Positions 1-40,877 of a stretch of DNA of 64,000 bases are shown piece by piece. Source of the DNA: Escherichia coli. GTDB lineage: Bacteria; Pseudomonadota; Gammaproteobacteria; Enterobacterales; Enterobacteriaceae. The position numbers and the translations under genes were made by a program. Positions within the stretch are counted from its first letter, which is position 1; each line of letters opens with the position of its first letter. The DNA lies in the NCBI RefSeq assembly GCF_048403405.1, contig NZ_CP183131.1, one strand, 5' to 3'. The notes below the pieces were generated by a model, which was given only the letters and a program-made list of their open reading frames with translations, searched no databases and was not told where the DNA came from.

Positions 1-684
1 ACCTTTTTTCTTGGCGAGGATGAGCTTCCACTCATCATTGGAGAGTTTGTCTGCGGCCTTCCCGGTGTCCGCAATGCGCCTACGCACCGTTACCGGATCA
101 AGTCCATGTGCTCTGGCTATGCTGGCAACGCAGTTGAACTTCCGACCGTCAATCATGACAGTAGGCAAATCACCAGCGGCAGCCTCCTTGAATCGGAAAC
201 CTCTGTAACCTGGTTTGAAGATCCCAGGAGCAAGTTGCTCACGGAACTCGATTGCTTGTTCTGACCTGACAAACTTGCTGTCGATTTTGCCGAGCATGTA
301 CTTAGCCCGAGCGATTACCTGGTAAAGCGTCTTCTCCAGGAGCATGGCGTCAGCAGCTCGACTCGGAAGACCTATGTCGTCTTCTTGCTCGATACCCAAC
401 ATTTCTGCATGGCTGGAGCCTTCTGCATGTCGGAAACAGCCGTCGTACTCAAAAAGAAAGGAGGCCAAACCTCCTCTCAGCTTTGCTTTGAACCGGGTGT
501 TGGCCGCGTTCTCTGGCGCTGGTGCCAGCTCGGACACTTCAAGCCCTAAATTTGCGGCCAACTTCCGCAGGTCTTCCTCTCCAATTCGGCATCCAGGCTG
601 CATAACCTGCGCCAGAGCAGATTCATCAGCACATCCGCGTTCTTTCAGCTCAGCCAAGAGGTAGGGAACTCGTACTACCCCCAT
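1..684 (-). CDS. hypothetical protein, partial (3' end lies beyond nt 1)
   Basis: Not in the ORF track because no stop lies inside the window. Manual minus-strand translation from ATG at 684 (MGVVRVPYLLAELKERGCADES...) stays open for 228 codons to nt 1. It starts 4 nt after the stop of the upstream gene and has an HTH-like stretch ASIARAHGLDPVTVRRRIADTG. Confidence 0.5.
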   Translation of the reverse strand, partial: MGVVRVPYLLAELKERGCADESALAQVMQPGCRIGEEDLRKLAANLGLEVSELAPAPENAANTRFKAKLRGGLASFLFEYDGCFRHAEGSSHAEMLGIEQEDDIGLPSRAADAMLLEKTLYQVIARAKYMLGKIDSKFVRSEQAIEFREQLAPGIFKPGYRGFRFKEAAAGDLPTVMIDGRKFNCVASIARAHGLDPVTVRRRIADTGKAADKLSNDEWKLILAKKKG

Positions 685-688
685 AAGC

Positions 689-982
689 TCAAGCTCCCTG
701 AATCGCGTGGACCACCAGCTCACAGAGTTTCCCGTACACAGGAGCAAGGCAGAGTGAAGCCATCACCATGCCAAAGGCTTTCGATGGAGCCTCTTTGGCG
801 AACTTGGTCAACCACGGCATCATGCCGCACAGAGCAGCAACCATAGCGCCAGCCACCCCCAGGGAAGGGAATGCCATCACTTGGGCCAGAATGAAGAAAC
901 ACTGGGCGTATGCCGCATGGGTCATCGCCTTCTTATCTGCTGCCGTGAACTCCACGGCATCTACGCTTTTGACTTTTTCCAT
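689..982 (-). CDS. small integral membrane protein (about 97 aa)
   Basis: ORF 689..1072. Start moved to ATG 982 (MEKVKSVD...), which has GAGGAC upstream and avoids overlap with the stop of 993..1466. Hydrophobic segments CFFILAQVMAFPSLGVAGAMVAALCGMM and FGMVMASLCLAPV. Confidence 0.45.
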   Translation of the reverse strand: MEKVKSVDAVEFTAADKKAMTHAAYAQCFFILAQVMAFPSLGVAGAMVAALCGMMPWLTKFAKEAPSKAFGMVMASLCLAPVYGKLCELVVHAIQGA

Positions 983-992
983 CACATTGTCC

Positions 993-1466
993 TCATGCAA
1001 CATCAGGTTTTCCGAAAAATTTCTCATACACTTCGAGGTCGAAGGCCAGCATGGTCTTTGCCGCCTTTTCACTAAGCTGGTGGAGGCTAAGCATCTGAAC
1101 CTTGTCAGTGCCGGTCACTTGCAGATCCACCGCGAACCACGTCCCACCTTTGGTCACGGCCAGAACTTGCACCGCCCAGGGCTTATCCAGTCGTTCGGGC
1201 GGAGTGATCATGTTCGACACTTTGGCGACCGTCGCGGTTGAACCTACCCAGTGCTTGTCGAACGCAATGACGTTCAACGCTTCAAACGCATCCTTCGCAG
1301 CTTTAAACCGGCTCCGGACAGCATCTTGTTGCTTCCAAGCCATGAACTGGAGAAGGGTCATTCCACCAGCCATAAGGGTGAGAAAACTCAAGCCATTGGC
1401 GGCAGCTACGACCGTCGCTACCAAGGACCCCAACATGACGAAGCGGTTATGTTTAAGCTGGGCCAC
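993..1466 (-). CDS. hypothetical protein with N-terminal transmembrane anchor
   Basis: 157-aa ORF with N-terminal hydrophobic stretch (MLGSLVATVVAAANGLSFLTLMAGGMTLL), in an operon with its neighbours. A promoter-like GGGGTTGCATTTTT core lies upstream at about 1500-1530. Confidence 0.5.
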   Translation of the reverse strand: MAQLKHNRFVMLGSLVATVVAAANGLSFLTLMAGGMTLLQFMAWKQQDAVRSRFKAAKDAFEALNVIAFDKHWVGSTATVAKVSNMITPPERLDKPWAVQVLAVTKGGTWFAVDLQVTGTDKVQMLSLHQLSEKAAKTMLAFDLEVYEKFFGKPDVA

Positions 1467-1562
1467 TATTCACCTCCTATACCAACCAGCGTACAGGACT
1501 TTTCAAAAATGCAACCCCGCCTAGCTGCCCAATTCGGGCAACCCTGATTCAATCCAGAACTT

Positions 1563-2084
1563 TCACATGTGAAACTTTCCGCCACAGGAACAGGAGGTTT
1601 TTACCTGACCAGAACGGATGGATTGATAGCGGTGCCACAGCTTGACCACTTCTTTTTCGCTGAGAAGGTTTGTCTTGATGTAACGGACTCTATCCCCGTC
1701 CGCTGTCTCAACAACGGTTCGGACATAGCCGTACTTGGCAACGGGTGCCTTGTACTTGTGTGACAGAATTACCCGGTAAACCGAGAGCTGGATAATGTCC
1801 GACTCATAGATGTGGTTTACCTGGCGCAGCTTGGTGTCCAAGGGAATGAGAACCCCATTCTTGGTTTGGTACACCTGATCAACCCTGCCGTGCATGGGCA
1901 CCGGCTGTGTGGTTGATATGTCCTGTTCGGACAAAAACAGAGTGGCCGAGCGCAGCTCATAAGGCATGTTCTCTGATTTCCACCACGCCCAGGTGTCTCC
2001 AATGCCGCGTTTGCGCCATTGGTCCACTTTCGCAATGACGAAAGGGGCGATGATCAGGACGAATATCCAGAGAACTGGCTTCAT
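1563..2084 (-). CDS. membrane-anchored PD-(D/E)XK (RecB/Cas4-like) nuclease
   Basis: 173 aa. N-terminal TM helix (VLWIFVLIIAPFVIA). Motifs in order: GRVDQV, LIPLDTK (D-x-K) and QLSVY (QxxxY), plus a C-terminal Cys cluster CSCGG. This is the canonical RecB/Cas4 nuclease motif order. Confidence 0.55.
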   Translation of the reverse strand: MKPVLWIFVLIIAPFVIAKVDQWRKRGIGDTWAWWKSENMPYELRSATLFLSEQDISTTQPVPMHGRVDQVYQTKNGVLIPLDTKLRQVNHIYESDIIQLSVYRVILSHKYKAPVAKYGYVRTVVETADGDRVRYIKTNLLSEKEVVKLWHRYQSIRSGQVKTSCSCGGKFHM

Positions 2085-2086
2085 GA

Positions 2087-2608
2087 CTACCTCCGGCCCC
2101 TAAACCACTCTGGATGATTGGATACATCCATGCTCTTAACCTGTGATGAGAAGACCAGTAGCTCTTGGGTCGTCAGGACGGTCTCAGGAGCCCGAGCGAT
2201 GAAAGGTCTCAGCAATTCAGAACCCGCATAGATATTGATGACCATATGCAATCGCTCTGTTGCTCCAGAAACTCTCCGCCAGCTCCGGTAGGTTTCTGTT
2301 GATTTGGCATAGCCAACCAAGGCAGGAGCCAGCGTGTCGGACTCCTTCGTATTCAACTTCCCTTTTGCTGCCTTCGATACGAACTCAGCGATCACCGAAG
2401 CCAGCATGTCGGAGGTAAGGTGAAGCGGCAGCTTTATCGTGTCGAAGTCAGCCTGCTTGATGGTGAACAGGCGGATGTGATCGTTGCGGTAGTCACGCAC
2501 ATAGATGACATGACTCTCAAATGGGTTGGAGTGGTTAAAGGCATCCATACCCCAGCCTGCGGCCTCAAGATGTGCGTTTGATACTGACTTGTCGTAATCA
2601 AATTCCAC
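2087..2608 (-). CDS. hypothetical protein
   Basis: 173-aa ORF with a GTG start directly after the stop of 2613..3221 (tight operon packing). No motif recognised. Confidence 0.5.
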   Translation of the reverse strand: MEFDYDKSVSNAHLEAAGWGMDAFNHSNPFESHVIYVRDYRNDHIRLFTIKQADFDTIKLPLHLTSDMLASVIAEFVSKAAKGKLNTKESDTLAPALVGYAKSTETYRSWRRVSGATERLHMVINIYAGSELLRPFIARAPETVLTTQELLVFSSQVKSMDVSNHPEWFRGRR

Positions 2609-2612
2609 GCTA

Positions 2613-3221
2613 TTACTCTCCGTCTTGTCGTTCAGGAACTTTCACATGTGAAAGTTTTCCGTCGGTCATGATGTCCAGGACGGCTTTGCCCAGTCTCATC
2701 CCTTTATGGTTTTGAACCGGGTCTCCCTTGTAGAAAAGTCCTGGCTCGTTATCGGGATGGAATACCCCGTGAGGAATGTTGTCGTGATCGCCCAGCCACA
2801 TGCGTAGCCTCAGATCCACCAGCCACCCATCATCCAGGACAACCCAGAAATGCGGTGTCACGATGTCCTTGGTCTGTTCGTTTCGCACAAAGCCATACAT
2901 GCAGTCATGAGGTACACCCGCTTCATTGAGTAGGTGGCTTACTGCCCATGTCATACCGTCACATTCCATCTGGCAGTCATCCAAGGTCATAAGGACGGCT
3001 TCCAGTTCCCGGTGCCACTCCGTCATTTGCTTGGCCGCAGGTTTTACCACCAGCTCGTTTTTGTTTTCTGCCAAGATGATGTCTTCCTCGTCAATATTGC
3101 ATTCGTCTATCGCTTCCGAACGGATGGATACCGCTTCATCCCAGTCATCGCTCGATCCGAAAATGCTCCAACCCTCAAGACCGTAATTCACCCATACGAT
3201 GAACCGCTTTATCGTTTTCAT
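2613..3221 (-). CDS. hypothetical protein, possible Cys-His-Asp (transglutaminase/papain-like) fold
   Basis: 202 aa, first gene of the minus-strand operon. Candidate triad context CDGMTWAVSHLL ... PHFWVVLDDGWLVDL. Assignment is weak. The 3' end encodes the 20-bp palindrome at 2637-2656. Confidence 0.45.
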   Translation of the reverse strand: MKTIKRFIVWVNYGLEGWSIFGSSDDWDEAVSIRSEAIDECNIDEEDIILAENKNELVVKPAAKQMTEWHRELEAVLMTLDDCQMECDGMTWAVSHLLNEAGVPHDCMYGFVRNEQTKDIVTPHFWVVLDDGWLVDLRLRMWLGDHDNIPHGVFHPDNEPGLFYKGDPVQNHKGMRLGKAVLDIMTDGKLSHVKVPERQDGE

Positions 3222-3238
3222 GTGCGGCCCCCTTTAAC

Positions 3239-3258
3239 CGTGCAACGTTCCCACATAC
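3239..3258 (+). repeat. orphan oriV-type iteron
   Basis: CGTGCAACGTTCCCACATAC matches the iteron consensus of the 5204-5964 array in the same orientation. It sits in the divergent promoter region between 3221(-) and 3490(+). Confidence 0.7.
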
Positions 3259-3489
3259 TCACCCCTTCAAACCGTAACCCCACCAAAAAGCCACTTCTTG
3301 ATGATTTCCAATCAGCAGCGGCAGGTTGCCCCTGAACTAACCTCACCGAAAAACCACCTTTAGATTGCTTTCTGGTGCTTATCAAGTTCTCCTGAGTGAT
3401 TAGTCGTTCTGAAAACTTTACTTTTCACAGTATCATTTTATAATACTGTAAATCATAAAAACAACCCAGTAAAGAAAAAAGAGCGACTT

Positions 3490-4605
3490 ATGTTGAGACG
3501 AGAAAACCAAGGAGATTTGTTCGATGACCAGGTGGTGTTGCCATCACTGGAGTCGGTTCTTACCGGCATATCTTCCAGTCAGCGTTGTGACGATAGAACA
3601 ACGTACTTCTCCGCTCCGGATGTGGACCTGAGTTTGTACGATCACATCATTGTTTGCCTGTCTGGAGGCAAAGACTCGATTGCTGCGTACTTGCGGCTGG
3701 TGGACATGGGTGTTGATAAGTCAAAGGTGGAGTTCTGGCACCATGATGTTGATGGTCAGGAAGGCAGTTCGTTGATGGATTGGGCCTTCATGCGTGATTA
3801 CTGTCGTCAGCTCGGGGAAGAACTGGGTATCCCAATGTACTTCTCGTGGCTTGAGGGCGGCTTTGAGGGCAAAATGCTCAAAGACAATGCCTATAGCCAC
3901 CCCCATCGTGTAGAGACGCCTGAGGGGCTTCTGGTGCTGCCTAGAGACCATAAGCGCTCTAAGCCTGGTACGCGCCTTCGTTTCCCTCAGCAATCGCCAT
4001 CACTCCAAACAAGGTGGTGCTCATCAGCCTTGAAGATCGATGTTGGCCGCAGAGCTCTTAATAACCAGGAGCGCTTCAAGGGGAAGAAGATCCTTTTCAT
4101 CACTGGTGAGCGCCGGGAGGAAAGTGCAAACAGATCCAAGTACAACCAGCTTGAGGCTCATGCCTGTGACAGAAGATATGGGAAGACTGCACGGTTAGTT
4201 GATGCCTGGAGGCCCGTTCTTCATTGGACTGAGGAGGAGGTATGGGAAGTAATCGAGCGTCACCGCATCCTGGCCCCAGTCCCTTATCGCCTTGGCTGGA
4301 GCCGGTCGTCGTGTATGACCTGCATCTACAACTCACAGCGTATCTGGTCCACGATCCGTCACTACTGGCCTGAACGAGCTGGGAAAATTGCTCAGTATGA
4401 ACAAACCTTTGGTGTGACGGTATCAAGAAAAAAAATCGACGTAATAGATTTAGGTTCTGCTGTTGCGCCGATACAGATTAGTGATGTTGAGGCATTGGAG
4501 CAGGTATCCAGAGAAGATTACACGCTCCCGATTTTTGTGCCGGAGGGGCAGAAGTGGGTTCTCCCTGGTGGCGCATTTGGCCGAGAGGCCTGTGGTTCTG
4601 ATTGA
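3490..4605 (+). CDS. PP-loop ATP pyrophosphatase / PAPS-reductase-family protein
   Basis: 371 aa. PP-loop motif VCLSGGKDSIAA. Overall layout resembles phosphoadenosine-phosphosulfate reductase-like (IbrA/DndC-related) proteins. C-terminal CMTC. Confidence 0.7.
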   Translation: MLRRENQGDLFDDQVVLPSLESVLTGISSSQRCDDRTTYFSAPDVDLSLYDHIIVCLSGGKDSIAAYLRLVDMGVDKSKVEFWHHDVDGQEGSSLMDWAFMRDYCRQLGEELGIPMYFSWLEGGFEGKMLKDNAYSHPHRVETPEGLLVLPRDHKRSKPGTRLRFPQQSPSLQTRWCSSALKIDVGRRALNNQERFKGKKILFITGERREESANRSKYNQLEAHACDRRYGKTARLVDAWRPVLHWTEEEVWEVIERHRILAPVPYRLGWSRSSCMTCIYNSQRIWSTIRHYWPERAGKIAQYEQTFGVTVSRKKIDVIDLGSAVAPIQISDVEALEQVSREDYTLPIFVPEGQKWVLPGGAFGREACGSD

Positions 4606-4622
4606 TTTGTGCAGAGGTGGCA

Positions 4623-5057
4623 ATGTTGGATTTTGTTTTTTTGGTGTTTTTGGGGTTGGGCATATCTACGGTGCTGGTGCGTCGGTCTTCCCGTAAGGGG
4701 ATGGATCTTGAGCTGACATGGCTCCAGTCGTTGAAGGTCGTGCTGGTTCGTGGAGCTGTTGCATTGGGCCTGGGTTTTGGCATTGGCAGGCTTGTATTGA
4801 TGGGGATGCAGTATGGTTTCCTGAGTGAGTCTGTCCTGAGGGAACATGCACTTGTCTCCGTAGCGGTGGTTCTGATCTGTGGGCTTGGTTCGTTCGTTGC
4901 GTTTCAGTGGATCATCGGGAGGATCTCTGGAAGATCGATCAGCGTCGTTTCTGTGATCAAAGCTGTGATGTACGAGTCTGGTTACTTTGTGCTGTCGATG
5001 CTTATCTTGTTGGTGATACTCGTCCTGTTCGGCCTTGCATACGAGACTTTTTTCTAA
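4623..5057 (+). CDS. integral membrane protein (about 4 TM)
   Basis: ORF 4602..5057. ATG at 4623 is preceded by GAGGTGG. Four hydrophobic segments. Adjacent to and probably co-transcribed with the PP-loop gene. Confidence 0.5.
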   Translation: MLDFVFLVFLGLGISTVLVRRSSRKGMDLELTWLQSLKVVLVRGAVALGLGFGIGRLVLMGMQYGFLSESVLREHALVSVAVVLICGLGSFVAFQWIIGRISGRSISVVSVIKAVMYESGYFVLSMLILLVILVLFGLAYETFF

Positions 5058-5203: not shown

Positions 5204-5964
5204 ATATTTATTCCGTGCAACAAACCCATAGGTTGCCGTGCAGCGTTCCCATAGGTTGCCGTGCAACGTCCCCACATACCCTTGGATCTTATCCACTGTT
5301 ATCCACACGGAACCCCTCTTTTTTCCACAAAATCCTTACAAAACAGAGCTTTCGTGCAGCGTTCCCACATATCAGATCTGGTGTTCGTGCAGTATTCCCA
5401 CATGTCTAAGGTCATACGTGCAGTCGCCCCATATACAATTTTCTGAACGTGCAACGTACCCACATGTCAATTTTGGTCGTTTTTTGCACCGTGCAGCGTA
5501 CCCACATATGATCGTGCAGCGTTCCCATATACCAAAACCCCGTTTATGCACAGGAAATGTGGATAACTTTTGGCCTCTTTTTGTGTGCGCGTGATCACTT
5601 TATGGACTATTAGAGTCATTTTGACTGCTTTTTTAGGTTTGTCCTGATCTGTCAATCTTTGTTCTGCTTCGTCAATCGTGCAGAGTTCCCATATATCGAG
5701 AGGTTCAGGACCTGCTTTCGTGCAACGTACCCACATATCAAATCTCATAACGTGCAGGTCCCCCACATCCTCACCCTTTAACTATCAATACCTTACGGGA
5801 ACCACTCTACGGGAACCACTGGAGCAGCATGGCACTTATCCTTCGTCGTGGCTTACGCTTGCACGATACTGAGACTCAGCTTGCGACTACCGTGCAGCGA
5901 TCCCATATATAGAGCCCCAGCCCACGCTGCATCTGGGGTCACGTTCGCTCTATCCGTGCAGCTC
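5204..5964 (+). repeat. oriV iteron array (14 direct repeats, IncA/C type)
   Basis: CGTGCA(A/G)NNNNCCCA(C/T)AT-type about 19-bp repeats, all in the same orientation. They start at 5204, 5227, 5250, 5343, 5376, 5407, 5438, 5480, 5503, 5667, 5709, 5741, 5881 and 5945. The array lies downstream of repA, as described for RA1/IncA/C replicons. An AT-rich, GATC-rich stretch at 5090-5200 adjoins it. Confidence 0.85.
5279..5297 (+). promoter_or_regulatory. tandem DnaA boxes in oriV
   Basis: TTATCCACT (5279-5287) and perfect TTATCCACA (5289-5297). A third perfect box lies on the opposite strand at 5548-5556 (TGTGGATAA). Confidence 0.7.
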
Positions 5965-6033
5965 CCCCATATGCGGAGGCATTCCGTTTCCGGTCCTGCC
6001 TGGTGGGCGTACCTTGTGCGCTTTCTTCTGGCA

Positions 6034-6093: not shown

Positions 6094-7194
6094 CTATCTC
6101 CCCTTACGTTGGGGTTCATCAATGATGTCGTGGTCGATCATGCCGTGCTTGATGGCCCGTAGCTCTGTCTGCTGCTTACGCTTGTTGGACGCCATCACCT
6201 GCTTCACGAAGTTCTCATGAGGCCTTATGACGTACCGCACGTCGATGACTCTGCGGCCATCCTTGATCTGGTTCGCGTCGTAGTCGCTTATGACCTCTTG
6301 TTTGATGAGGGCCTCCAGAGCGAGCTTCATGGCTCTGACGTTCTCCGGCATCCGTGGGCTCAATTCACGAGGGCTCTGGGTCAGGAAGCTGATAAGCGAT
6401 GGCGTGTACGGCGAATCTGGTGATGCTTGAGTCCAGTAGTGGCTCATTCGCTTGTAGATGTACCGTGCAAGAGGGGAGCGGATTTGCATTCCGATTTTGT
6501 AGTTGTACTGACGAAACGACAGATTCATGATCGATTCGTTTACCAGCGGGTTGAACTGCACATAGCACCTGGCGTTCCCGCCTTTCTTGCGAAACTCACC
6601 TCTGGTGGTCAGTCCCACCATCGGGAAGAAGCTGGAGCTGATGAAGGCTTCACCGTCATCACTGATACATTCGAGTGTTGCGCCACGACAAACCTGGATT
6701 GCTTCCTTGATTTCGTTCAGGTTGTACCCGTGACCCATCTTCGAGAGCTCTTTCTGGAGTTCGTACAGAGTGAACATGACTCCAGCCTTGCCCTCGATGA
6801 TATGGCCTTTCCCGTTCACTGCGAGCTTGCGTAGAGCATCCTCAAGGATTTCCTCTCGCTGTCCCGCGTAGATCAGCACGGTTCTTCCGTCATCCTTCTC
6901 GATGATGGCTGGCTTCACCTTCACCGTGAAATGCTGGCCTCTGATGGTGCATTGTCGTGTCACTACAGCGTTGGATAAATCTTCATGCTCACGCTTTTGG
7001 TCCCAAATGTACTTCGGCAGCGCATCGTAGATCTCGATGGTGTTGGAGTAGTCGTCTTTCTTGGCCGGAGATTCAATGATCTCAAACAGGCTCATTTGCG
7101 GTGAGTCTTTGATTACGTCGAGTTTCTCCAGGTCTTTGTCTTTGGTTCTCTTGCTCATGATTGTTCCGTCGATACTTTCTAGCTGGTGGTCCAT
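6094..7194 (-). CDS. repA: replication initiator RepA (IncA/C family)
   Basis: 366-aa ORF (alternative start MSKRTKDKDLEKLDVIK at 7158). The sequence is recognised as IncA/C RepA. It is followed by its own iteron array and DnaA boxes. Confidence 0.9.
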   Translation of the reverse strand: MDHQLESIDGTIMSKRTKDKDLEKLDVIKDSPQMSLFEIIESPAKKDDYSNTIEIYDALPKYIWDQKREHEDLSNAVVTRQCTIRGQHFTVKVKPAIIEKDDGRTVLIYAGQREEILEDALRKLAVNGKGHIIEGKAGVMFTLYELQKELSKMGHGYNLNEIKEAIQVCRGATLECISDDGEAFISSSFFPMVGLTTRGEFRKKGGNARCYVQFNPLVNESIMNLSFRQYNYKIGMQIRSPLARYIYKRMSHYWTQASPDSPYTPSLISFLTQSPRELSPRMPENVRAMKLALEALIKQEVISDYDANQIKDGRRVIDVRYVIRPHENFVKQVMASNKRKQQTELRAIKHGMIDHDIIDEPQRKGR

Positions 7195-7466
7195 GCCGCC
7201 AGCATTGTCAATGCTCCCGCTGCTACCGTCGCTGAAAACACTAGCTGGTAGATGCGACGCTTAGCCCCCGCAGTGCCGCTCATAAAACGCAGGGCTGCCG
7301 CTTCATATCGGAAATGAGCGAACTCACCCCGAAGGGTGCTATCTGTCCCCTGTGGCGATTGTGGGCGCTTTGACAGGGCAGGGCGAGGATGGCTGGCGAC
7401 TTTCTTGATCATCGCTTCACATTTCCCCAGTTTCGCCAATTCAGTGGCCGCTACAGATGCTGTCAT
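7179..7466 (-). CDS. small hypothetical protein (C-terminal TM)
   Basis: 95-aa ORF packed between the 188-aa gene (stop 7471) and repA (16-nt overlap). C-terminal hydrophobic tail IYQLVFSATVAAGALTMLAAW. No homology recognised. Confidence 0.35.
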   Translation of the reverse strand: MTASVAATELAKLGKCEAMIKKVASHPRPALSKRPQSPQGTDSTLRGEFAHFRYEAAALRFMSGTAGAKRRIYQLVFSATVAAGALTMLAAWTTS

Positions 7467-8332: not shown

Positions 8333-8351
8333 CGTGCAGCGTTCCCATAGG
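8333..8351 (+). repeat. orphan oriV-type iteron
   Basis: CGTGCAGCGTTCCCATAGG is identical to the iteron at 5227. It lies about 160 bp upstream of stbA. Confidence 0.7.
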
Positions 8352-8508
8352 TTCCCTTACTCAACGATCAAAAAGCCACCGAAAAGCAACCTATATGCCC
8401 CTTTTGGGCAATTACACAGGCCATCTGTCCCCGCTTTTAGCCTTATTCTCTATCCAACACGCGGCAAGCAATCGAAAAGCAATCTAAAAGCAATCTTTGG
8501 AGGATTTC

Positions 8509-12824: not shown

Positions 12825-12848
12825 CAAACTTTCACATGTGAAAGTTTG
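12825..12848. promoter_or_regulatory. 24-bp perfect palindrome (parS-like site)
   Basis: CAAACTTTCACATGTGAAAGTTTG, flanked by AGGGCAAA direct repeats. A half-site AAACTTTCACA lies at 12907-12917. See findings. Confidence 0.6.
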
Positions 12849-19556: not shown

Positions 19557-19572
19557 CTTTCACATGTGAAAG
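19557..19572. promoter_or_regulatory. 16-bp perfect palindrome (parS-like site)
   Basis: CTTTCACATGTGAAAG with outer GTCAA...TTGAC, in the gap between the helicase stop (19584) and the traF start. Confidence 0.6.
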
Positions 19573-39866: not shown

Positions 39867-40877
39867 TTAATCCGCTATATCGAGGCGTTGGCTCGCTCTC
39901 TTCAAACGCTCATCGCCGCGTCTGTCATATTTCTGGGTAGTTGCAATGCTTGAGTGGCCCATTGCGTCCTTCACGGTCACAATATCCTCACCGTTATCCA
40001 GCATCGAGGAGGCAAAGGTGCGTCGCAGGTCATGGGGCGCAAACATCTCCAGACCGGCTTCAACTCTTCTGGTCTCCAAGATGTGGTAGATGGCCTGATC
40101 CGACATCCGCTCTCCAGTCACATCATCAAACCGCCTGATCCTCGGGAATAAAGGCCCTTCATGCGTTCCTCGAACCTCTTCAACCCACTTATCCAGTCTT
40201 TTCCATGCGCCACCAGGCACATACGCCATTCTCTCTTTGTTGCCCTTGCCAAGAACCTTGAGAGCGCGGTCCTTGTAGATCATGCTTCCCATGTCCAGCG
40301 CAACGATTTCCGAGCGGCGCAAGCCACACCCGAGGAGCACCCCGAGAATGGCCGCATCCCGAAGCCCTTTGGCGCTTGAATCACTTTCACATGTGAAAAA
40401 GAGGCTGCGAATCTCATGGCGTTCAAGTGCCCGCCCTTTAGGAAGTCGAGATCCACGTACTGAACGGACTTGCTTAATGTGCTGGAAGCTATCCGTATCA
40501 ATTTGCTTCATCGTCCAGGCTTCAAGAGCCACCCCTTTGAGCGCTGACAGGTAGGTGTTGATCGTTGCCGGAGCCTTCCCTGCATCCCCCAGCATTTCCA
40601 GCACCGCCAATATGTGGTGCCGCCTCATTGAGCTCCATGCACAGTCACGAAGGTTCTGAAACCCGATCATCTTGGCGACAATGTTGAGGAATGAGCTCAT
40701 GGTCTGCCTGCTTCGCTTTGACCCGAGGCTCACCAGATAGGCGACGGCGGGGTTGTCCTGGATGTTCCGGAGCGAGCTCGATGACGGCAACAGTTCACCG
40801 CGAATGCTTTGTTCTGCCGGAACATTTACTTTCGCATGTGAAACTAGCTCTTCCTTGTCATTGTTTGTGTCGTGCAA
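39867..40877 (-). CDS. int: tyrosine site-specific recombinase (XerC/D-like integrase)
   Basis: 336 aa. Catalytic region GLRRSE..., HDLRRTFAS and GHSSIATTQKYDRR (R-H-R-Y). Contains two copies of the parS-like palindrome in its coding sequence (40385-40398, 40840-40853). Confidence 0.8.
   Translation of the reverse strand: MHDTNNDKEELVSHAKVNVPAEQSIRGELLPSSSSLRNIQDNPAVAYLVSLGSKRSRQTMSSFLNIVAKMIGFQNLRDCAWSSMRRHHILAVLEMLGDAGKAPATINTYLSALKGVALEAWTMKQIDTDSFQHIKQVRSVRGSRLPKGRALERHEIRSLFFTCESDSSAKGLRDAAILGVLLGCGLRRSEIVALDMGSMIYKDRALKVLGKGNKERMAYVPGGAWKRLDKWVEEVRGTHEGPLFPRIRRFDDVTGERMSDQAIYHILETRRVEAGLEMFAPHDLRRTFASSMLDNGEDIVTVKDAMGHSSIATTQKYDRRGDERLKRASQRLDIAD

What the first reader, a model, noticed from the sequence alone, without database searches (positions are those of the whole stretch)
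1..5057. repA-proximal divergent module: membrane-anchored PD-(D/E)XK nuclease operon facing a PP-loop enzyme plus 4-TM protein
The minus-strand operon (3221 down to nt 1 and beyond) encodes six tightly packed proteins:
- a possible Cys-His-Asp hydrolase
- an orphan protein
- a RecB/Cas4-like nuclease with an N-terminal TM helix (GRVDQV, LIPLDTK, QLSVY, C-terminal CSCGG)
- a TM-anchored protein
- a small polytopic membrane protein
- an HTH-containing protein

It diverges from a second PAPS-reductase-family PP-loop protein (VCLSGGKDSIAA) coupled to a 4-TM protein. A membrane-tethered nuclease with membrane partners next to a nucleotide-activating enzyme resembles defence, exclusion or abortive-infection cassettes more than housekeeping plasmid functions.

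The shared 270-bp control region carries an orphan iteron (3239), a 7-bp-arm inverted repeat ACAGTAT-N9-ATACTGT (3427-3449), a half parS-like site and an AAAGCAATCT motif also found at stbA. Two full parS-like palindromes sit at the 3' ends of two genes in the operon.
Basis: inference. Interest (0 to 1): 0.55.

Follow-up and report, generated by a model that had tools for sequence, protein, structure and literature searches.

The report
IncC plasmid backbone genes near repA
This stretch is a universally conserved but functionally uncharacterised part of the IncC/IncA multidrug-resistance plasmid backbone: a nearly silent three-gene unit (cysteine-peptidase-like protein, orphan protein, membrane-anchored Cas4/RecB-like nuclease), a separate conjugation-activated operon and an exchangeable PAPS-reductase gene, and not a recognisable defence cassette.

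Summary
The window is the IncC (IncA/C2) plasmid backbone; the finding covers pVCR94 genes vcrx006-vcrx014. The 173-aa protein is a Cas4/RecB-type PD-(D/E)XK nuclease with an N-terminal membrane helix. The 202-aa protein has an invariant Cys-His-Asp triad of transglutaminase-like type. The 371-aa protein is a PP-loop PAPS-reductase-family enzyme followed by a 4-TM protein. The "parS-like palindromes" are the published, ParB-binding IncC parS sites.

The "six-gene operon" is not one unit. A published AcaCD box and transcription start lie between the nuclease gene and vcrx012. vcrx009-011 and vcrx007 are almost silent in published RNA-seq, whereas vcrx012 onward is AcaCD-dependent and continues about 13 genes beyond the window.

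The genes are as universal as repA in about 1050 plasmids and are under purifying selection. The peptidase-like/nuclease pair is syntenic in diverged A/C-like backbones; the PAPS reductase is not. No defence-system model matches, and a published exclusion screen did not pick up these genes.

My best reading is a leading-end, normally repressed DNA-processing module of MOBH conjugative plasmids; its function is untested. Defence or exclusion remains possible but unsupported.

The parts
1..684 (-). vcrx014 (284 aa; its first 56 codons lie beyond the window start). Soluble protein with two weak HTH-like segments; part of the AcaCD-activated operon.
   Evidence: Annotation. TIGR04111 9.3e-5 and phrog_925 1.1e-4 at residues ~235-264, both sub-threshold. 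Expression 286/0/912 in WT / delta-acaCD / complemented.
689..982 (-). vcrx013, a 97-aa protein with 2-3 hydrophobic segments.
   Evidence: Expression 58/0/301.
993..1466 (-). vcrx012, a 157-aa protein with one N-terminal TM-like segment; first gene of the AcaCD-dependent unit.
   Evidence: Carraro 2014 Table S3 names vcrx012 as the gene downstream of the AcaCD site.
1480..1545 (-). AcaCD-dependent promoter: AcaCD box at 1517-1545 (core TTGCCCGAATTGGGCA) and 5'-RACE TSS at 1480-1482.
   Evidence: ChIP-exo and 5'-RACE coordinates 6466-6494 and 6529-6531 in pVCR94, mapped as window = 8011 - coordinate. Sequence read. The GCCC-N6-GGGC box is conserved in L003, L016 and pVPH1.
1557..1578 (.). IncC parS site (core TTTCACATGTGAAA) overlapping the stop codon of the nuclease gene, about 12 bp upstream of the AcaCD box.
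   Evidence: Sites of this family bind ParB in EMSA (three representative sites tested), and this copy is listed inside R55_08 / next to vcrx012 in PMC10954446. Conserved in IncA, L003 and L016.
1563..2084 (-). vcrx011, a 173-aa membrane-anchored Cas4/RecB-type PD-(D/E)XK nuclease (TM residues ~3-21; E53, D69, D83-x-K85, Q99xxxY103). No Cas4 4-Cys cluster; it ends in CxCGGxFH.
2087..2608 (-). vcrx010, a 173-aa orphan protein present only in some related backbones.
2613..3221 (-). vcrx009, a 202-aa transglutaminase-like Cys-His-Asp protein (C87, H124, D136) with a lineage-specific ~65-aa N-terminal extension.
   Evidence: Adjacent to the nuclease gene in about 15 dereplicated lineages.
2636..2657 (.). 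IncC parS site (perfect 20-bp palindrome AACTTTCACATGTGAAAGTT) inside the 3' end of vcrx009.
   Evidence: Listed inside R55_6 in PMC10954446.
3239..3256 (+). Orphan RepA iteron copy (CGTGCAACGTTCCCACAT), 18 nt upstream of the vcrx009 start codon.
   Evidence: 0 mismatches to the degenerate consensus. Invariant in IncA and Photorhabdus relatives while flanking bases vary.
3417..3449 (+). Sigma-70-like promoter of vcrx007 (TTTACT-16-TATAAT, 3417-3444), overlapped by the near-palindrome ACAGTATCAT-TTT-ATAATACTGT (3427-3449).
   Evidence: The -35 and -10 boxes are invariant in relatives; the left palindrome arm is not.
3490..4605 (+). vcrx007, a 371-aa PP-loop PAPS-reductase-family protein (SGGKDS at residues 58-63; CxxC at 274-277) of the phage/plasmid family phrog_424.
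   Evidence: PF01507 3.2e-8, above gathering. phrog_424 5.1e-34. Partial BrxP/SspD/DndC similarity only. Phage homologues.
4623..5057 (+). vcrx006, a 144-aa protein with four hydrophobic segments. Conserved in many A/C-like backbones even where vcrx007 is absent.

Best explanation
The region is core backbone of IncC/IncA conjugative plasmids and consists of three independent units.

(1) vcrx009-010-011 is tightly packed (2-4 nt gaps). It encodes a transglutaminase-like Cys-His-Asp enzyme, an orphan protein and a small Cas4/RecB-type nuclease held at the inner membrane by an N-terminal helix. The positive-inside rule predicts that the catalytic domain faces the cytoplasm.

(2) vcrx012 onward is a separate, AcaCD-activated conjugation-regulon operon that runs far beyond the window.

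(3) vcrx007 (PAPS-reductase-family PP-loop enzyme) and vcrx006 (4-TM protein) are divergently transcribed from their own strong promoter. vcrx007 sits in an exchangeable cargo slot.

Shown: domain identities, the transcription split, near-silence of units 1 and 3 in established plasmids, universality, purifying selection, and synteny of the peptidase-like/nuclease pair next to mobI/oriT in diverged MOBH plasmids.

Inferred: the region lies about 3-8 kb into the leading end of the transferred DNA. Unit 1 is kept off in established cells, plausibly by RepA at the iteron beside its ribosome-binding site and by ParB at the two embedded parS sites. It acts transiently at the membrane on DNA ends or single-stranded DNA during conjugative entry or establishment. 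It does not act as a constitutive defence system. The enzymatic substrate and the phenotype are unknown.
For: - Identity with the IncC backbone: 1065 records, 762 at >=99%; mapping to vcrx006-014.
- Split operon: AcaCD ChIP-exo site and TSS between vcrx011 and vcrx012. Rockhopper expression (WT / delta-acaCD / complemented): vcrx009 8/0/0, vcrx010 7/0/0, vcrx011 0/0/1, vcrx007 4/0/0, against vcrx013 58/0/301, vcrx014 286/0/912 and DsbA 64/0/1262.
- The AcaCD box is conserved at the same position in backbones with only 51-62% protein identity, and parS is conserved there in IncA, L003 and L016. A 76%-identity lineage keeps 4TM-PAPS-TG-010-nuclease but lacks the vcrx012 array within the available downstream sequence.
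- Nuclease: invariant motifs; Cas4 profile hits; AF2 pLDDT 80 with Foldseek top hits MGME1, AdnAB nuclease domains, Cas4, ACE1 and Exo5. The family has 769 representative clusters, and 110 of the top 144 have an N-terminal hydrophobic helix.
- Peptidase-like protein: invariant C/H/D, PF01841 in 7 of 25 members.
- Synteny: the TG-like gene is directly upstream of the nuclease gene in about 15 lineages, including a Comamonas plasmid. It lies next to stbA-oriT-mobI(-repA) and upstream of S49 peptidase and DsbA. Remote TM-less homologues lie next to the MOBH relaxase and coupling protein.
- Core status: 1044 (unit 1) and 1023 (unit 3) records against 1048 for repA at >=80% coverage; dN/dS 0.047-0.22 against 0.038 for repA.
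- Leading-end position: IncC-driven transfer from the homologous oriT of MGIVchHai6 'progresses downstream of mobI' (PMC7449626).
- Control elements: invariant iteron 18 nt from the vcrx009 ATG, ParB-binding parS sites in vcrx009 and vcrx011, and no consensus sigma-70 promoter facing vcrx009.
Against: - No experiment assigns any function to vcrx006-011. The 2015 review lists these operons as 'unknown', and I found no later assignment in the library.
- Transfer polarity has been shown for a mobilised island with a related oriT, not for the plasmid itself.
- vcrx009-026 are in the sense orientation relative to the inferred T-strand, so they cannot be transcribed before complementary-strand synthesis.
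- Repression by RepA or ParB is inferred from position only. Silence in E. coli RNA-seq could equally reflect H-NS-type silencing or a missing inducer.
- The pVCR94 TnSeq for entry into V. cholerae reported only the hde locus (vcrx089-093) as differentially required between Cas+ and delta-cas recipients. The per-gene table was not available to me.
- Nuclease activity, membrane topology and any interaction with the peptidase-like protein are predictions.
Confidence: 0.5

Rival explanations
1. One reading: the membrane-tethered nuclease with its partners is a defence, exclusion or abortive-infection device. It would degrade incoming phage or competitor-plasmid DNA at the membrane, possibly together with the PAPS-reductase enzyme.
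For: - A catalytically intact Cas4/RecB-type nuclease with a membrane anchor is well placed to meet DNA entering the cell.
- It is paired with a peptidase-like enzyme that could, for example, remove a covalently bound relaxase.
- Tight repression is common for toxic effectors.
- The PAPS-reductase domain resembles BrxP/DndC/SspD modules of defence systems.
- Phage defence and exclusion of unrelated plasmids have never been tested.
Against: - No PADLOC system-level match; vcrx009, 010, 012, 013, 014 and 006 hit nothing.
- The genes are core and syntenic in the backbone rather than patchy, and show purifying rather than diversifying selection.
- None of the homologue contexts examined looks like a defence island; they are conjugation/partition regions or plain metabolic neighbourhoods.
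- The PAPS reductase is not co-conserved with the nuclease.
- The TraDIS exclusion screen found sfx sufficient for all exclusion remaining after eexC, and vcrx006-014 were not candidates.
- The genes are almost unexpressed in plasmid-bearing cells, which is hard to reconcile with constitutive protection.
Confidence: 0.2
2. vcrx007 (with or without vcrx006) is an early-expressed anti-defence or DNA/nucleotide-modifying cargo gene of the leading region, functionally separate from the nuclease unit.
For: - It is the only unit in the first ~8 kb whose template strand is the inferred T-strand. This is the orientation reported for leading-region anti-defence genes (PMC11541004).
- It has a strong sigma-70 promoter overlapped by a 23-bp near-palindrome in operator position, yet expression is near zero in established plasmids (4/0/0).
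- It belongs to the phage 'moron/host takeover' family phrog_424 (5.1e-34), with homologues in Pseudoalteromonas phage KB12-38 (41%), phage 186 and P2-like phages.
- Its slot is variable in related backbones and holds a second, unrelated PAPS-reductase family in L003 and L016.
Against: - No convincing Frpo-like ssDNA promoter: z -1.5 to -2.5, with the -35 and -10 in different helices.
- No Dnd/Ssp partner genes; scores are far below the DndC, CysH and BrxP full-length models.
- dN/dS is 0.047, as low as repA, with no arms-race signal.
- Within IncA/IncC it is core, not variable.
- The published TnSeq for entry into a restricting, CRISPR-positive V. cholerae highlighted only the hde locus.
- T-strand polarity is inferred by homology.
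Confidence: 0.25
3. The peptidase-like/nuclease pair is a donor-side or general housekeeping accessory of the conjugation or partition machinery (for example processing of plasmid DNA at the membrane-bound T4SS or partition complex), with no role in recipients.
For: - Constant position beside oriT/mobI or the MOBH relaxase, and upstream of the S49 peptidase-DsbA array that belongs to the AcaCD regulon.
- parS sites are embedded in the unit.
Against: - The unit is not induced by AcaCD, unlike the transfer genes.
- It was not reported as required for transfer or maintenance in the pVCR94 TnSeq text.
- The unit separates from the vcrx012 array in one lineage.
Confidence: 0.15

Closest known systems
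Cas4 / RecB-family PD-(D/E)XK nucleases (Cas4, AddB/AdnAB nuclease domains, MGME1, Exo5)
   Same: Same motif set (E, D, D/E-x-K, QxxxY) and the same fold by Foldseek (probability ~1.0, E 8e-4 to 4e-3). Cas4 profiles are the best sequence hits.
   Different: Only 173 aa, with an N-terminal membrane helix. It lacks the four-Cys Fe-S cluster of Cas4 and ends in CxCGGxFH. It has no CRISPR or helicase partner, scores far below the Cas4 equivalog cut-off (20 against 65 bits), and is encoded in MOBH conjugative backbones.
Transglutaminase-like cysteine peptidases (Pfam PF01841 superfamily)
   Same: Invariant Cys-His-Asp with the H-x-W...G-W-x-x-D pattern; 7 of 25 family members hit PF01841 or PF13471.
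   Different: The window protein itself gets no Pfam hit at E<=1, and the family profile finds no solved structure by sequence. It has an extra ~65-aa N-terminal domain in IncA/IncC. The substrate is unknown.
Phage and plasmid PAPS-reductase-family proteins (phrog_424; DndC/SspD/BrxP PP-loop domain)
   Same: PF01507 domain above threshold, an SGGKDS PP-loop and a CxxC motif; strong match to phrog_424.
   Different: No DndA/D/E or Ssp partners. Similarity to DndC, BrxP and SspD covers only ~90-140 residues, far below equivalog cut-offs (36.8 against 290 bits for DndC). It is not CysH (19 against 165 bits).
Leading-region establishment/anti-defence islands of conjugative plasmids (Samuel et al. 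2024, PMC11541004)
   Same: Position within a few kb of oriT on the side inferred to enter first; genes silent in established plasmids; a variable cargo slot.
   Different: No known anti-defence gene, SSB, methyltransferase or Frpo promoter in this stretch. Most genes are in the sense orientation relative to the inferred T-strand. The known IncC anti-defence locus hde (vcrx089-093) lies elsewhere.
IncC exclusion factors EexC and Sfx
   Same: Membrane-associated plasmid proteins that could act on incoming conjugative DNA.
   Different: Unrelated in sequence. EexC plus Sfx account for the whole measured exclusion phenotype, and vcrx006-014 were not TraDIS candidates.

Membership tests
Cas4/RecB-type PD-(D/E)XK nuclease superfamily | Catalytic motifs: acidic motif I, D of motif II, (D/E)xK of motif III, QhxxY | tested here: met
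   E53, D69 (HGRVDQ), D/E83-T-K85 and Q99-L-S-V-Y103 are invariant or nearly invariant in 19 sequences down to 37% identity.
Cas4/RecB-type PD-(D/E)XK nuclease superfamily | Restriction-endonuclease-like alpha/beta fold similar to solved members | tested here: met
   AF2 mean pLDDT 80 with the core >85. Foldseek PDB top hits are MGME1, AdnA/AdnB, Cas4, ACE1, SSO0001 and Exo5 at probability 0.99-1.0, though E-values are only 8e-4 to 4e-3 and TM-scores ~0.35-0.47.
Cas4 proper (CRISPR-associated, TIGR00372 / PF01930) | Four-cysteine Fe-S cluster, score above the curated cut-off, CRISPR-cas neighbourhood | tested here: not met
   Only a C-terminal CxC; TIGR00372 scores 20.1 bits against a cut-off of 65; no Pfam Cas4 or PDDEXK_1 hit for the window protein at E<=1; no cas genes nearby.
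Membrane-anchored protein (signal-anchor) | N-terminal hydrophobic helix of ~19 residues; topology | tested here: inconclusive
   A Kyte-Doolittle 19-aa window scores 2.11 at residues 3-21; AF2 predicts a helix at 3-25; 110 of 144 family representatives have such a segment. The cytoplasmic orientation follows only from the K/R-rich flank after the helix. A cleavable signal peptide (VIA|K) is not excluded.
Transglutaminase-like cysteine peptidase superfamily (PF01841) | Cys-His-Asp triad in conserved order and a profile match | tested here: inconclusive
   The triad is invariant in 25 sequences. PF01841 matches 7 of 25 members (best 8.7e-5) but not the window protein. No structure was predicted for it.
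PAPS reductase / PP-loop ATP pyrophosphatase family (PF01507) | Pfam gathering score reached; SGGxDS PP-loop | tested here: met
   34.2 bits against a cut-off of 22.5; SGGKDS at residues 58-63; phrog_424 5.1e-34.
DndC / SspD / BrxP (phosphorothioation or BREX type 4 enzymes) | Full-length match above the curated cut-off, and the partner genes (DndA/D/E, SspA-C, BREX genes) | tested here: not met
   TIGR03183 scores 36.8 bits against 290.4. The PADLOC BrxP, SspD and DndC hits cover only residues ~169-300. No partner genes are present in the neighbourhood.
Known anti-phage defence systems (PADLOC-DB v2) | Several components of one system matching adjacent genes | tested here: not met
   Only single-domain similarities for two of eight proteins; the other six have none.
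Single polycistronic operon (as claimed) | No internal promoter; uniform expression | tested here: not met
   A published AcaCD site and TSS lie in the 96-nt gap after the nuclease gene, and expression differs by one to two orders of magnitude across it. The box is conserved in distant relatives. Rockhopper nevertheless merged vcrx008-026 into one predicted operon.
IncC parS (ParB-binding centromere-like sites) | 14-bp core TTTCACATGTGAAA with AAAC/GTTT-type flanks; ParB binding | tested here: met
   Exact cores with GAAC...GTTT and GAAC...CTTT flanks at 2636-2657 and 1557-1578. ParB binding was shown by EMSA for representative sites, and these positions are listed in PMC10954446. Binding to these two copies was not tested individually.
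Leading-region anti-defence island | Located in the first-entering DNA; T-strand is the template; ssDNA (Frpo) promoter; known anti-defence genes | tested here: inconclusive
   Leading position is inferred from MGIVchHai6 polarity. Template orientation holds only for vcrx007-006. No convincing Frpo fold. No known anti-defence family was hit.
Conjugative exclusion system of IncC | Loss of the gene in the recipient increases entry of IncC plasmids | not testable with these tools
   Published TraDIS: the candidates were vcrx018/019, 062, 085 (sfx), 107/108, 111, 137 and acr2, and sfx was necessary and sufficient. This is indirect negative evidence only, because the unit is barely expressed.

The most novel reading that the evidence does not exclude
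The transglutaminase-like Cys peptidase and the membrane-tethered Cas4-like nuclease form a two-enzyme device of MOBH conjugative elements that works on relaxase-capped transferred single-stranded DNA at the inner membrane. The peptidase would remove or trim the covalently bound relaxase, and the nuclease would process the freed 5' end. This could serve to complete establishment of the element's own DNA, or to destroy T-strands of competing elements (a DNA-level 'conjugation immunity' distinct from entry and surface exclusion). The device would be switched off by RepA and ParB once the plasmid is established.
Probability: 0.12. Interest if true: 0.75.

Novelty: new variant of a known kind. Interest (0 to 1): 0.38.

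Why it matters
IncC/IncA plasmids are among the main carriers of carbapenemase and multidrug resistance, and much of their conserved backbone still has no assigned function. This analysis gives testable identities to three such genes that are retained as faithfully as repA. It shows that the nuclease belongs to a sizeable family (about 770 representative clusters), most members of which carry an N-terminal membrane helix, and that the homologues whose context could be examined sit mostly in MOBH conjugative elements beside oriT, mobI or the relaxase. It also places the genes at the probable leading end of the plasmid.

If the pair acts on incoming DNA, for establishment or against competitors, it would be a new step in conjugation biology and a possible target for limiting plasmid spread. 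If the genes have no detectable phenotype, the finding is ordinary backbone annotation. The regulatory features (parS, the AcaCD promoter) are already published.

Tried and rejected
- **One operon.** Rejected on published ChIP-exo, 5'-RACE and RNA-seq data and on conservation of the internal AcaCD box.
- **Nuclease-PAPS reductase functional pair.** Rejected. vcrx007 is detectable only in lineages with >=76% nuclease identity. Other backbones carry an unrelated PAPS-reductase family (BLASTP E 0.13), an RNase T-like exonuclease, a Rep3 gene or nothing in that slot.
- **LexA box at 3427-3449.** Rejected from reading the sequence: the half-sites are in the wrong order (ACAG...CTGT rather than CTGT...ACAG).
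- **Frpo-type ssDNA promoter upstream of vcrx007.** Folding gives z -1.5 to -2.5 on either strand, and the -35 and -10 fall in different helices. Not convincing.
- **Shared regulatory module between the control region and the stbA upstream region.** Only the iteron and a short CCACC(A/G)AAAAGC block align, and AAAGCAATCT is not conserved in relatives. Dropped.
- **Identity of the PDB hit 'PptA'** (21fy_C, E 0.013). Three literature searches found nothing relevant.
- **TnSeq per-gene data** of Roy et al. 2020: the supplement is not held. Hancock et al. 2017 TraDIS (recalled from memory) was not found in the library. Hochhut 2000 is not held.
- **My own recollection that SXT mobilises DNA 5' of prfC** (which would make mobI enter last) was contradicted by PMC7449626, which states 3' of prfC and shows transfer proceeding downstream of mobI.
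- **Sequence-profile searches of the nuclease and peptidase-like families against PDB** found nothing significant.

Full report
**What the window is.** A 7.3-kb query covering the finding and repA matches 1065 plasmid records, 762 of them at >=99% identity, typed IncC with a MOBH relaxase and MPF_F. RepA (6094-7194, minus strand) and its iterons (about 5214-5972) lie just to the right of the finding. Using the gene table of pVCR94 (Carraro et al. 2014, PMC4207636, Dataset S1 and Table S3), window coordinate = 8011 minus pVCR94 coordinate. The finding therefore equals:

| pVCR94 gene | Window coordinates | Product |
|---|---|---|
| vcrx006 | 4623-5057, + | 4-TM protein |
| vcrx007 | 3490-4605, + | PAPS-reductase family |
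| vcrx009 | 2613-3221, - | 202 aa, transglutaminase-like |
| vcrx010 | 2087-2608, - | 173 aa, orphan |
| vcrx011 | 1563-2084, - | 173 aa, nuclease |
| vcrx012 | 993-1466, - | 157 aa, one TM |
| vcrx013 | 689-982, - | 97 aa, 2-3 TM |
| vcrx014 | <1-684, - | 284 aa, weak HTH |

. The same-strand array continues beyond window position 1 through an S49 peptidase, a DsbA-family protein, several small proteins, a thermonuclease and HU.

**Checking the observation: proteins.**

- All gene calls and quoted peptide motifs are present.
- The 173-aa vcrx011 protein gives sub-threshold but consistent Cas4 hits (PADLOC Cas4d 9.4e-7, Cas4b 1.2e-6; TIGR00372 4.4e-4).
  - Several distant homologues carry a precomputed PF12705 PD-(D/E)XK domain.
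  - In an alignment of 19 family members down to 37% identity, E53, H65-G-R-V-D69-Q, (D/E)83-T-K85 and D96-I-I-Q-L-S-V-Y103 are invariant or nearly so. This is the full RecB/Cas4 motif set.
  - An AlphaFold2 model (mean pLDDT 80, core blocks 86-95) has as best PDB neighbours MGME1, the AdnA/AdnB nuclease domains, Cas4, the Argonaute-associated Cas4-family protein ACE1, SSO0001 and Exo5. Probabilities are 0.99-1.0, although E-values are modest (8e-4 to 4e-3).
  - It lacks the Cas4 four-Cys cluster. The IncC-like branch ends in CxCGGxFH, while remote branches end in CxxCx5-6C.
  - Hydropathy and the model both give an N-terminal helix at residues 3-25. The K/R-rich flank after it (KVDQWRKRG) predicts a cytoplasmic catalytic domain. 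That is an inference from the positive-inside rule, and a cleavable signal peptide is not excluded.
- vcrx009 has invariant C87, H124 and D136 within an H-x-W...G-W-x-x-D pattern. Seven of 25 family members hit PF01841 Transglut_core (best 8.7e-5), although the window protein itself does not.
- vcrx007 passes the Pfam PAPS_reduct threshold, has an SGGKDS PP-loop and matches phage family phrog_424 at 5.1e-34.
- vcrx010 matches nothing by sequence or by fold.
- The HTH in vcrx014 rests on two sub-threshold hits.

**Checking the observation: DNA features.**

- The iteron copy at 3239-3256 is a perfect match to the degenerate iteron consensus. The window holds 15 matches against 0.22 expected, including further outliers at 4176-4193 (inverted, inside vcrx007) and 8333-8350. 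It lies 18 nt upstream of the vcrx009 start codon and is invariant in IncA and a Photorhabdus relative while nearby bases vary.
- The inverted repeat at 3427-3449 is exact and extends to a 23-bp near-palindrome, ACAGTATCAT-TTT-ATAATACTGT. It overlaps the spacer and -10 of the only good sigma-70 promoter in the intergenic region (TTTACT-16-TATAAT, 3417-3444), which points at vcrx007.
  - Such a repeat is not statistically unusual (12 of 100 shuffles at up to 2 mismatches), and its left arm has one uncompensated change in each relative. So an operator role is plausible but weakly supported.
- No consensus promoter faces vcrx009.
- The two "parS-like palindromes" (1557-1578 and 2636-2657) carry the core TTTCACATGTGAAA, with 5 exact copies in the window against 0.37 expected. 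These are the IncC parS sites described in PMC10954446. That paper showed ParB binding by EMSA for representative sites, lists copies inside R55_6 and R55_08, and points out the copy just upstream of the AcaCD box of vcrx012.
- The AAAGCAATCT motif is real (3362-3371, and twice before stbA) but is not conserved in relatives. The half-parS is a chance-level 7-mer.

**The "operon" is at least two units.** Carraro et al. mapped an AcaCD ChIP-exo site at pVCR94 6466-6494 (window 1517-1545) and a 5'-RACE start at 6529-6531 (window 1480-1482). Both lie in the 96-nt gap between the nuclease gene and vcrx012. Their RNA-seq 'Expression' values are:

| Gene | WT | delta-acaCD | complemented |
|---|---|---|---|
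| vcrx007 | 4 | 0 | 0 |
| vcrx009 | 8 | 0 | 0 |
| vcrx010 | 7 | 0 | 0 |
| vcrx011 | 0 | 0 | 1 |
| vcrx012 | 129 | 33 | 132 |
| vcrx013 | 58 | 0 | 301 |
| vcrx014 | 286 | 0 | 912 |
| S49 peptidase | 7 | 0 | 270 |
| DsbA | 64 | 0 | 1262 |
| thermonuclease | 322 | 1 | 2999 |

- The palindromic AcaCD box (GCCC-N6-GGGC) is conserved at the same position in backbones whose proteins are only 51-62% identical, and the parS core is conserved there in IncA, L003 and L016.
- In a lineage with 76% nuclease identity, the block 4TM-PAPS-TG-010-nuclease is present but the vcrx012 array is absent from the available downstream sequence.
- Within the upstream unit the genes are separated by 2-4 nt. In relatives lacking vcrx010, the peptidase-like and nuclease ORFs overlap.

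**Conservation and neighbourhoods.**

- Among PLSDB plasmids, repA, vcrx009-011 and vcrx007-006 are found at >=80% coverage in 1048, 1044 and 1023 records.
- dN/dS between IncC and IncA copies is 0.047 (vcrx009), 0.080 (vcrx010), 0.172 (vcrx011), 0.047 (vcrx007) and 0.174 (vcrx006), against 0.038 for repA. These are real, constrained core genes.
- Across 60 loci fetched from plasmids, genomes and metagenomes, profile searches show the following:
  - The transglutaminase-like gene lies directly upstream of the nuclease gene in about 15 dereplicated lineages (35-54% identity), including a Comamonas plasmid.
  - It usually lies downstream of stbA-oriT-mobI(-repA) and upstream of vcrx012/013, S49 peptidase and DsbA.
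  - The 4-TM gene is often kept on the opposite strand.
  - vcrx010 is sporadic.
- The vcrx007-type PAPS reductase accompanies the nuclease only at >=76% nuclease identity. In its place, other backbones carry an unrelated PAPS-reductase-family gene (BLASTP E 0.13; with an RNase T-like exonuclease in L016), a Rep3 initiator, unknown genes or nothing.
- Remote, mostly TM-less nuclease homologues lie beside the MOBH relaxase TraI_2 and coupling protein, ParB, topoisomerase III and HU in ICE-like elements, or alone among metabolic genes in Sporomusa. None lies in a defence-island-like context.
- The nuclease family has 769 representative clusters at E<=1e-3, all small single-domain proteins. Of the best 144, 110 have an N-terminal hydrophobic helix.

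**Position relative to transfer.** oriT lies immediately upstream of mobI (PMC3915882, PMC5587640). For MGIVchHai6, an island mobilised by the IncC relaxosome whose oriT core is 84% identical to that of pVCR94 and also lies upstream of a mobI gene, marker-transfer experiments showed that transfer 'progresses downstream of mobI' (PMC7449626).

By homology, which is an inference for the plasmid itself, DNA enters in the order mobI, repA, oriV, vcrx006/007, vcrx009-011, vcrx012 and so on. That puts the finding 3-8 kb into the leading end. The T-strand would then be the window's minus strand. It would be the sense strand for vcrx009-026 but the template strand for vcrx007-006, the orientation reported for leading-region anti-defence genes (PMC11541004). 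I found no convincing Frpo-like ssDNA promoter.

**Functional evidence in the literature.**

- The 2015 review lists these operons as unknown.
- A TnSeq of pVCR94 transfer into V. cholerae found only vcrx089-093 (hde) differentially required between Cas+ and delta-cas recipients (PMC7498323). The per-gene table was not available.
- A TraDIS screen for exclusion found sfx 'necessary and sufficient' for the exclusion remaining after eexC, and none of vcrx006-014 was among the candidates (PMC11493245).
- No paper in the library assigns a function to these genes.

**Interpretation.** The best-supported description is three units of core IncA/IncC backbone:

1. A silent peptidase-like / orphan / membrane-anchored nuclease unit.
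2. The start of a long AcaCD-activated operon.
3. A divergent unit of PAPS reductase plus 4-TM protein, in which the PAPS reductase sits in an exchangeable slot.

I commit, at about 0.5, to the view that the peptidase-like/nuclease pair is a normally repressed, membrane-located DNA-processing function tied to conjugative entry or establishment of MOBH plasmids. Its repression would plausibly come from RepA at the adjacent iteron and ParB at the embedded parS sites. These last steps are inferred from position only.

The rivals, each with a stated refuting experiment, are:

- A defence or exclusion role: about 0.2. It is disfavoured by core status, context, the lack of a system-level match, the negative exclusion screen and the near-absence of expression, but it has never been tested against phages or unrelated plasmids.
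- A separate anti-defence or modification role for vcrx007: about 0.25.
- A donor-side housekeeping role: about 0.15.

**Novelty.** The ORFs, parS sites and AcaCD promoter are already in the literature, so the regulatory part is known. What appears new is:

- The identification of the conserved transglutaminase-like / membrane-anchored Cas4-like nuclease pair.
- The size and typical membrane anchor of that nuclease family.
- Its association with oriT-proximal regions of MOBH elements.
- The cargo-slot behaviour of the PAPS reductase.
- The probable leading-end position of the region.

This is a new variant of a known kind of enzyme in a clinically important plasmid. The function is still unknown, so interest is moderate.

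Noticed in passing
window 4176-4193 (minus strand) and 8333-8350 (plus strand): Two further iteron-like copies lie outside oriV. One is inverted and sits inside the vcrx007 coding sequence (2 mismatches). The other lies between the mobI/oriT region and stbA (1 mismatch). Together with the copy at 3239 they flank the replication origin on both sides, which might serve RepA handcuffing or gene control.
   Followed up: partly
window 8465-8496, with an AcaCD-like box at about 8396-8412: Three tandem 11-bp repeats, (C/A)AAGCAATC(G/T)A, lie directly before the stbA ribosome-binding site and downstream of a GCCC-N6-GGGC AcaCD-type box. They are a candidate operator or centromere for the ParM-like StbA/vcrx151 system.
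   Followed up: partly
L003:1311-2321, L016:6264-8296, L017:6314-7711, L012:8138-9433: The slot between the 4-TM gene and the transglutaminase-like gene is a cargo hotspot in A/C-like backbones. It holds a second PAPS-reductase family unrelated by BLAST to vcrx007 (with an RNase T-like exonuclease in L016), a Rep3 initiator, or unknown genes.
   Followed up: partly
window 3490-4605 (residues 262-315 of vcrx007): The only PDB sequence hit is a 270-aa chain named 'PptA' (21fy_C, E 0.013), aligned over the CxxC region. I could not find what PptA is.
   Followed up: partly
window 12830-12843, 19558-19571, 40385-40398, 40830-40843: Four more parS cores occur elsewhere in the window (three exact, one with one mismatch), in line with the 12-14 copies per IncC plasmid reported in PMC10954446.
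   Followed up: no
L039-L042 (metagenome contigs, 76% nuclease identity): This lineage keeps 4TM-PAPS reductase-TG-010-nuclease, but the vcrx012-S49-DsbA array is absent from the available downstream sequence of L039 and L040. The two units therefore separate in evolution.
   Followed up: partly
window 1511-1528 (minus strand): A weak terminator-like hairpin plus T-run overlaps the AcaCD box between the nuclease gene and vcrx012 (1 site found against 0.2 expected). It could end the upstream unit, but the stem is poor (6 pairs, 3 of them G-C).
   Followed up: no
window 7179-7466 (minus strand): A 95-aa ORF (vcrx002) overlaps the 5' end of repA by 16 nt and lies between mobI and repA. It is annotated in RefSeq records and shows AcaCD-related differential expression in Carraro's Dataset S1.
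   Followed up: no
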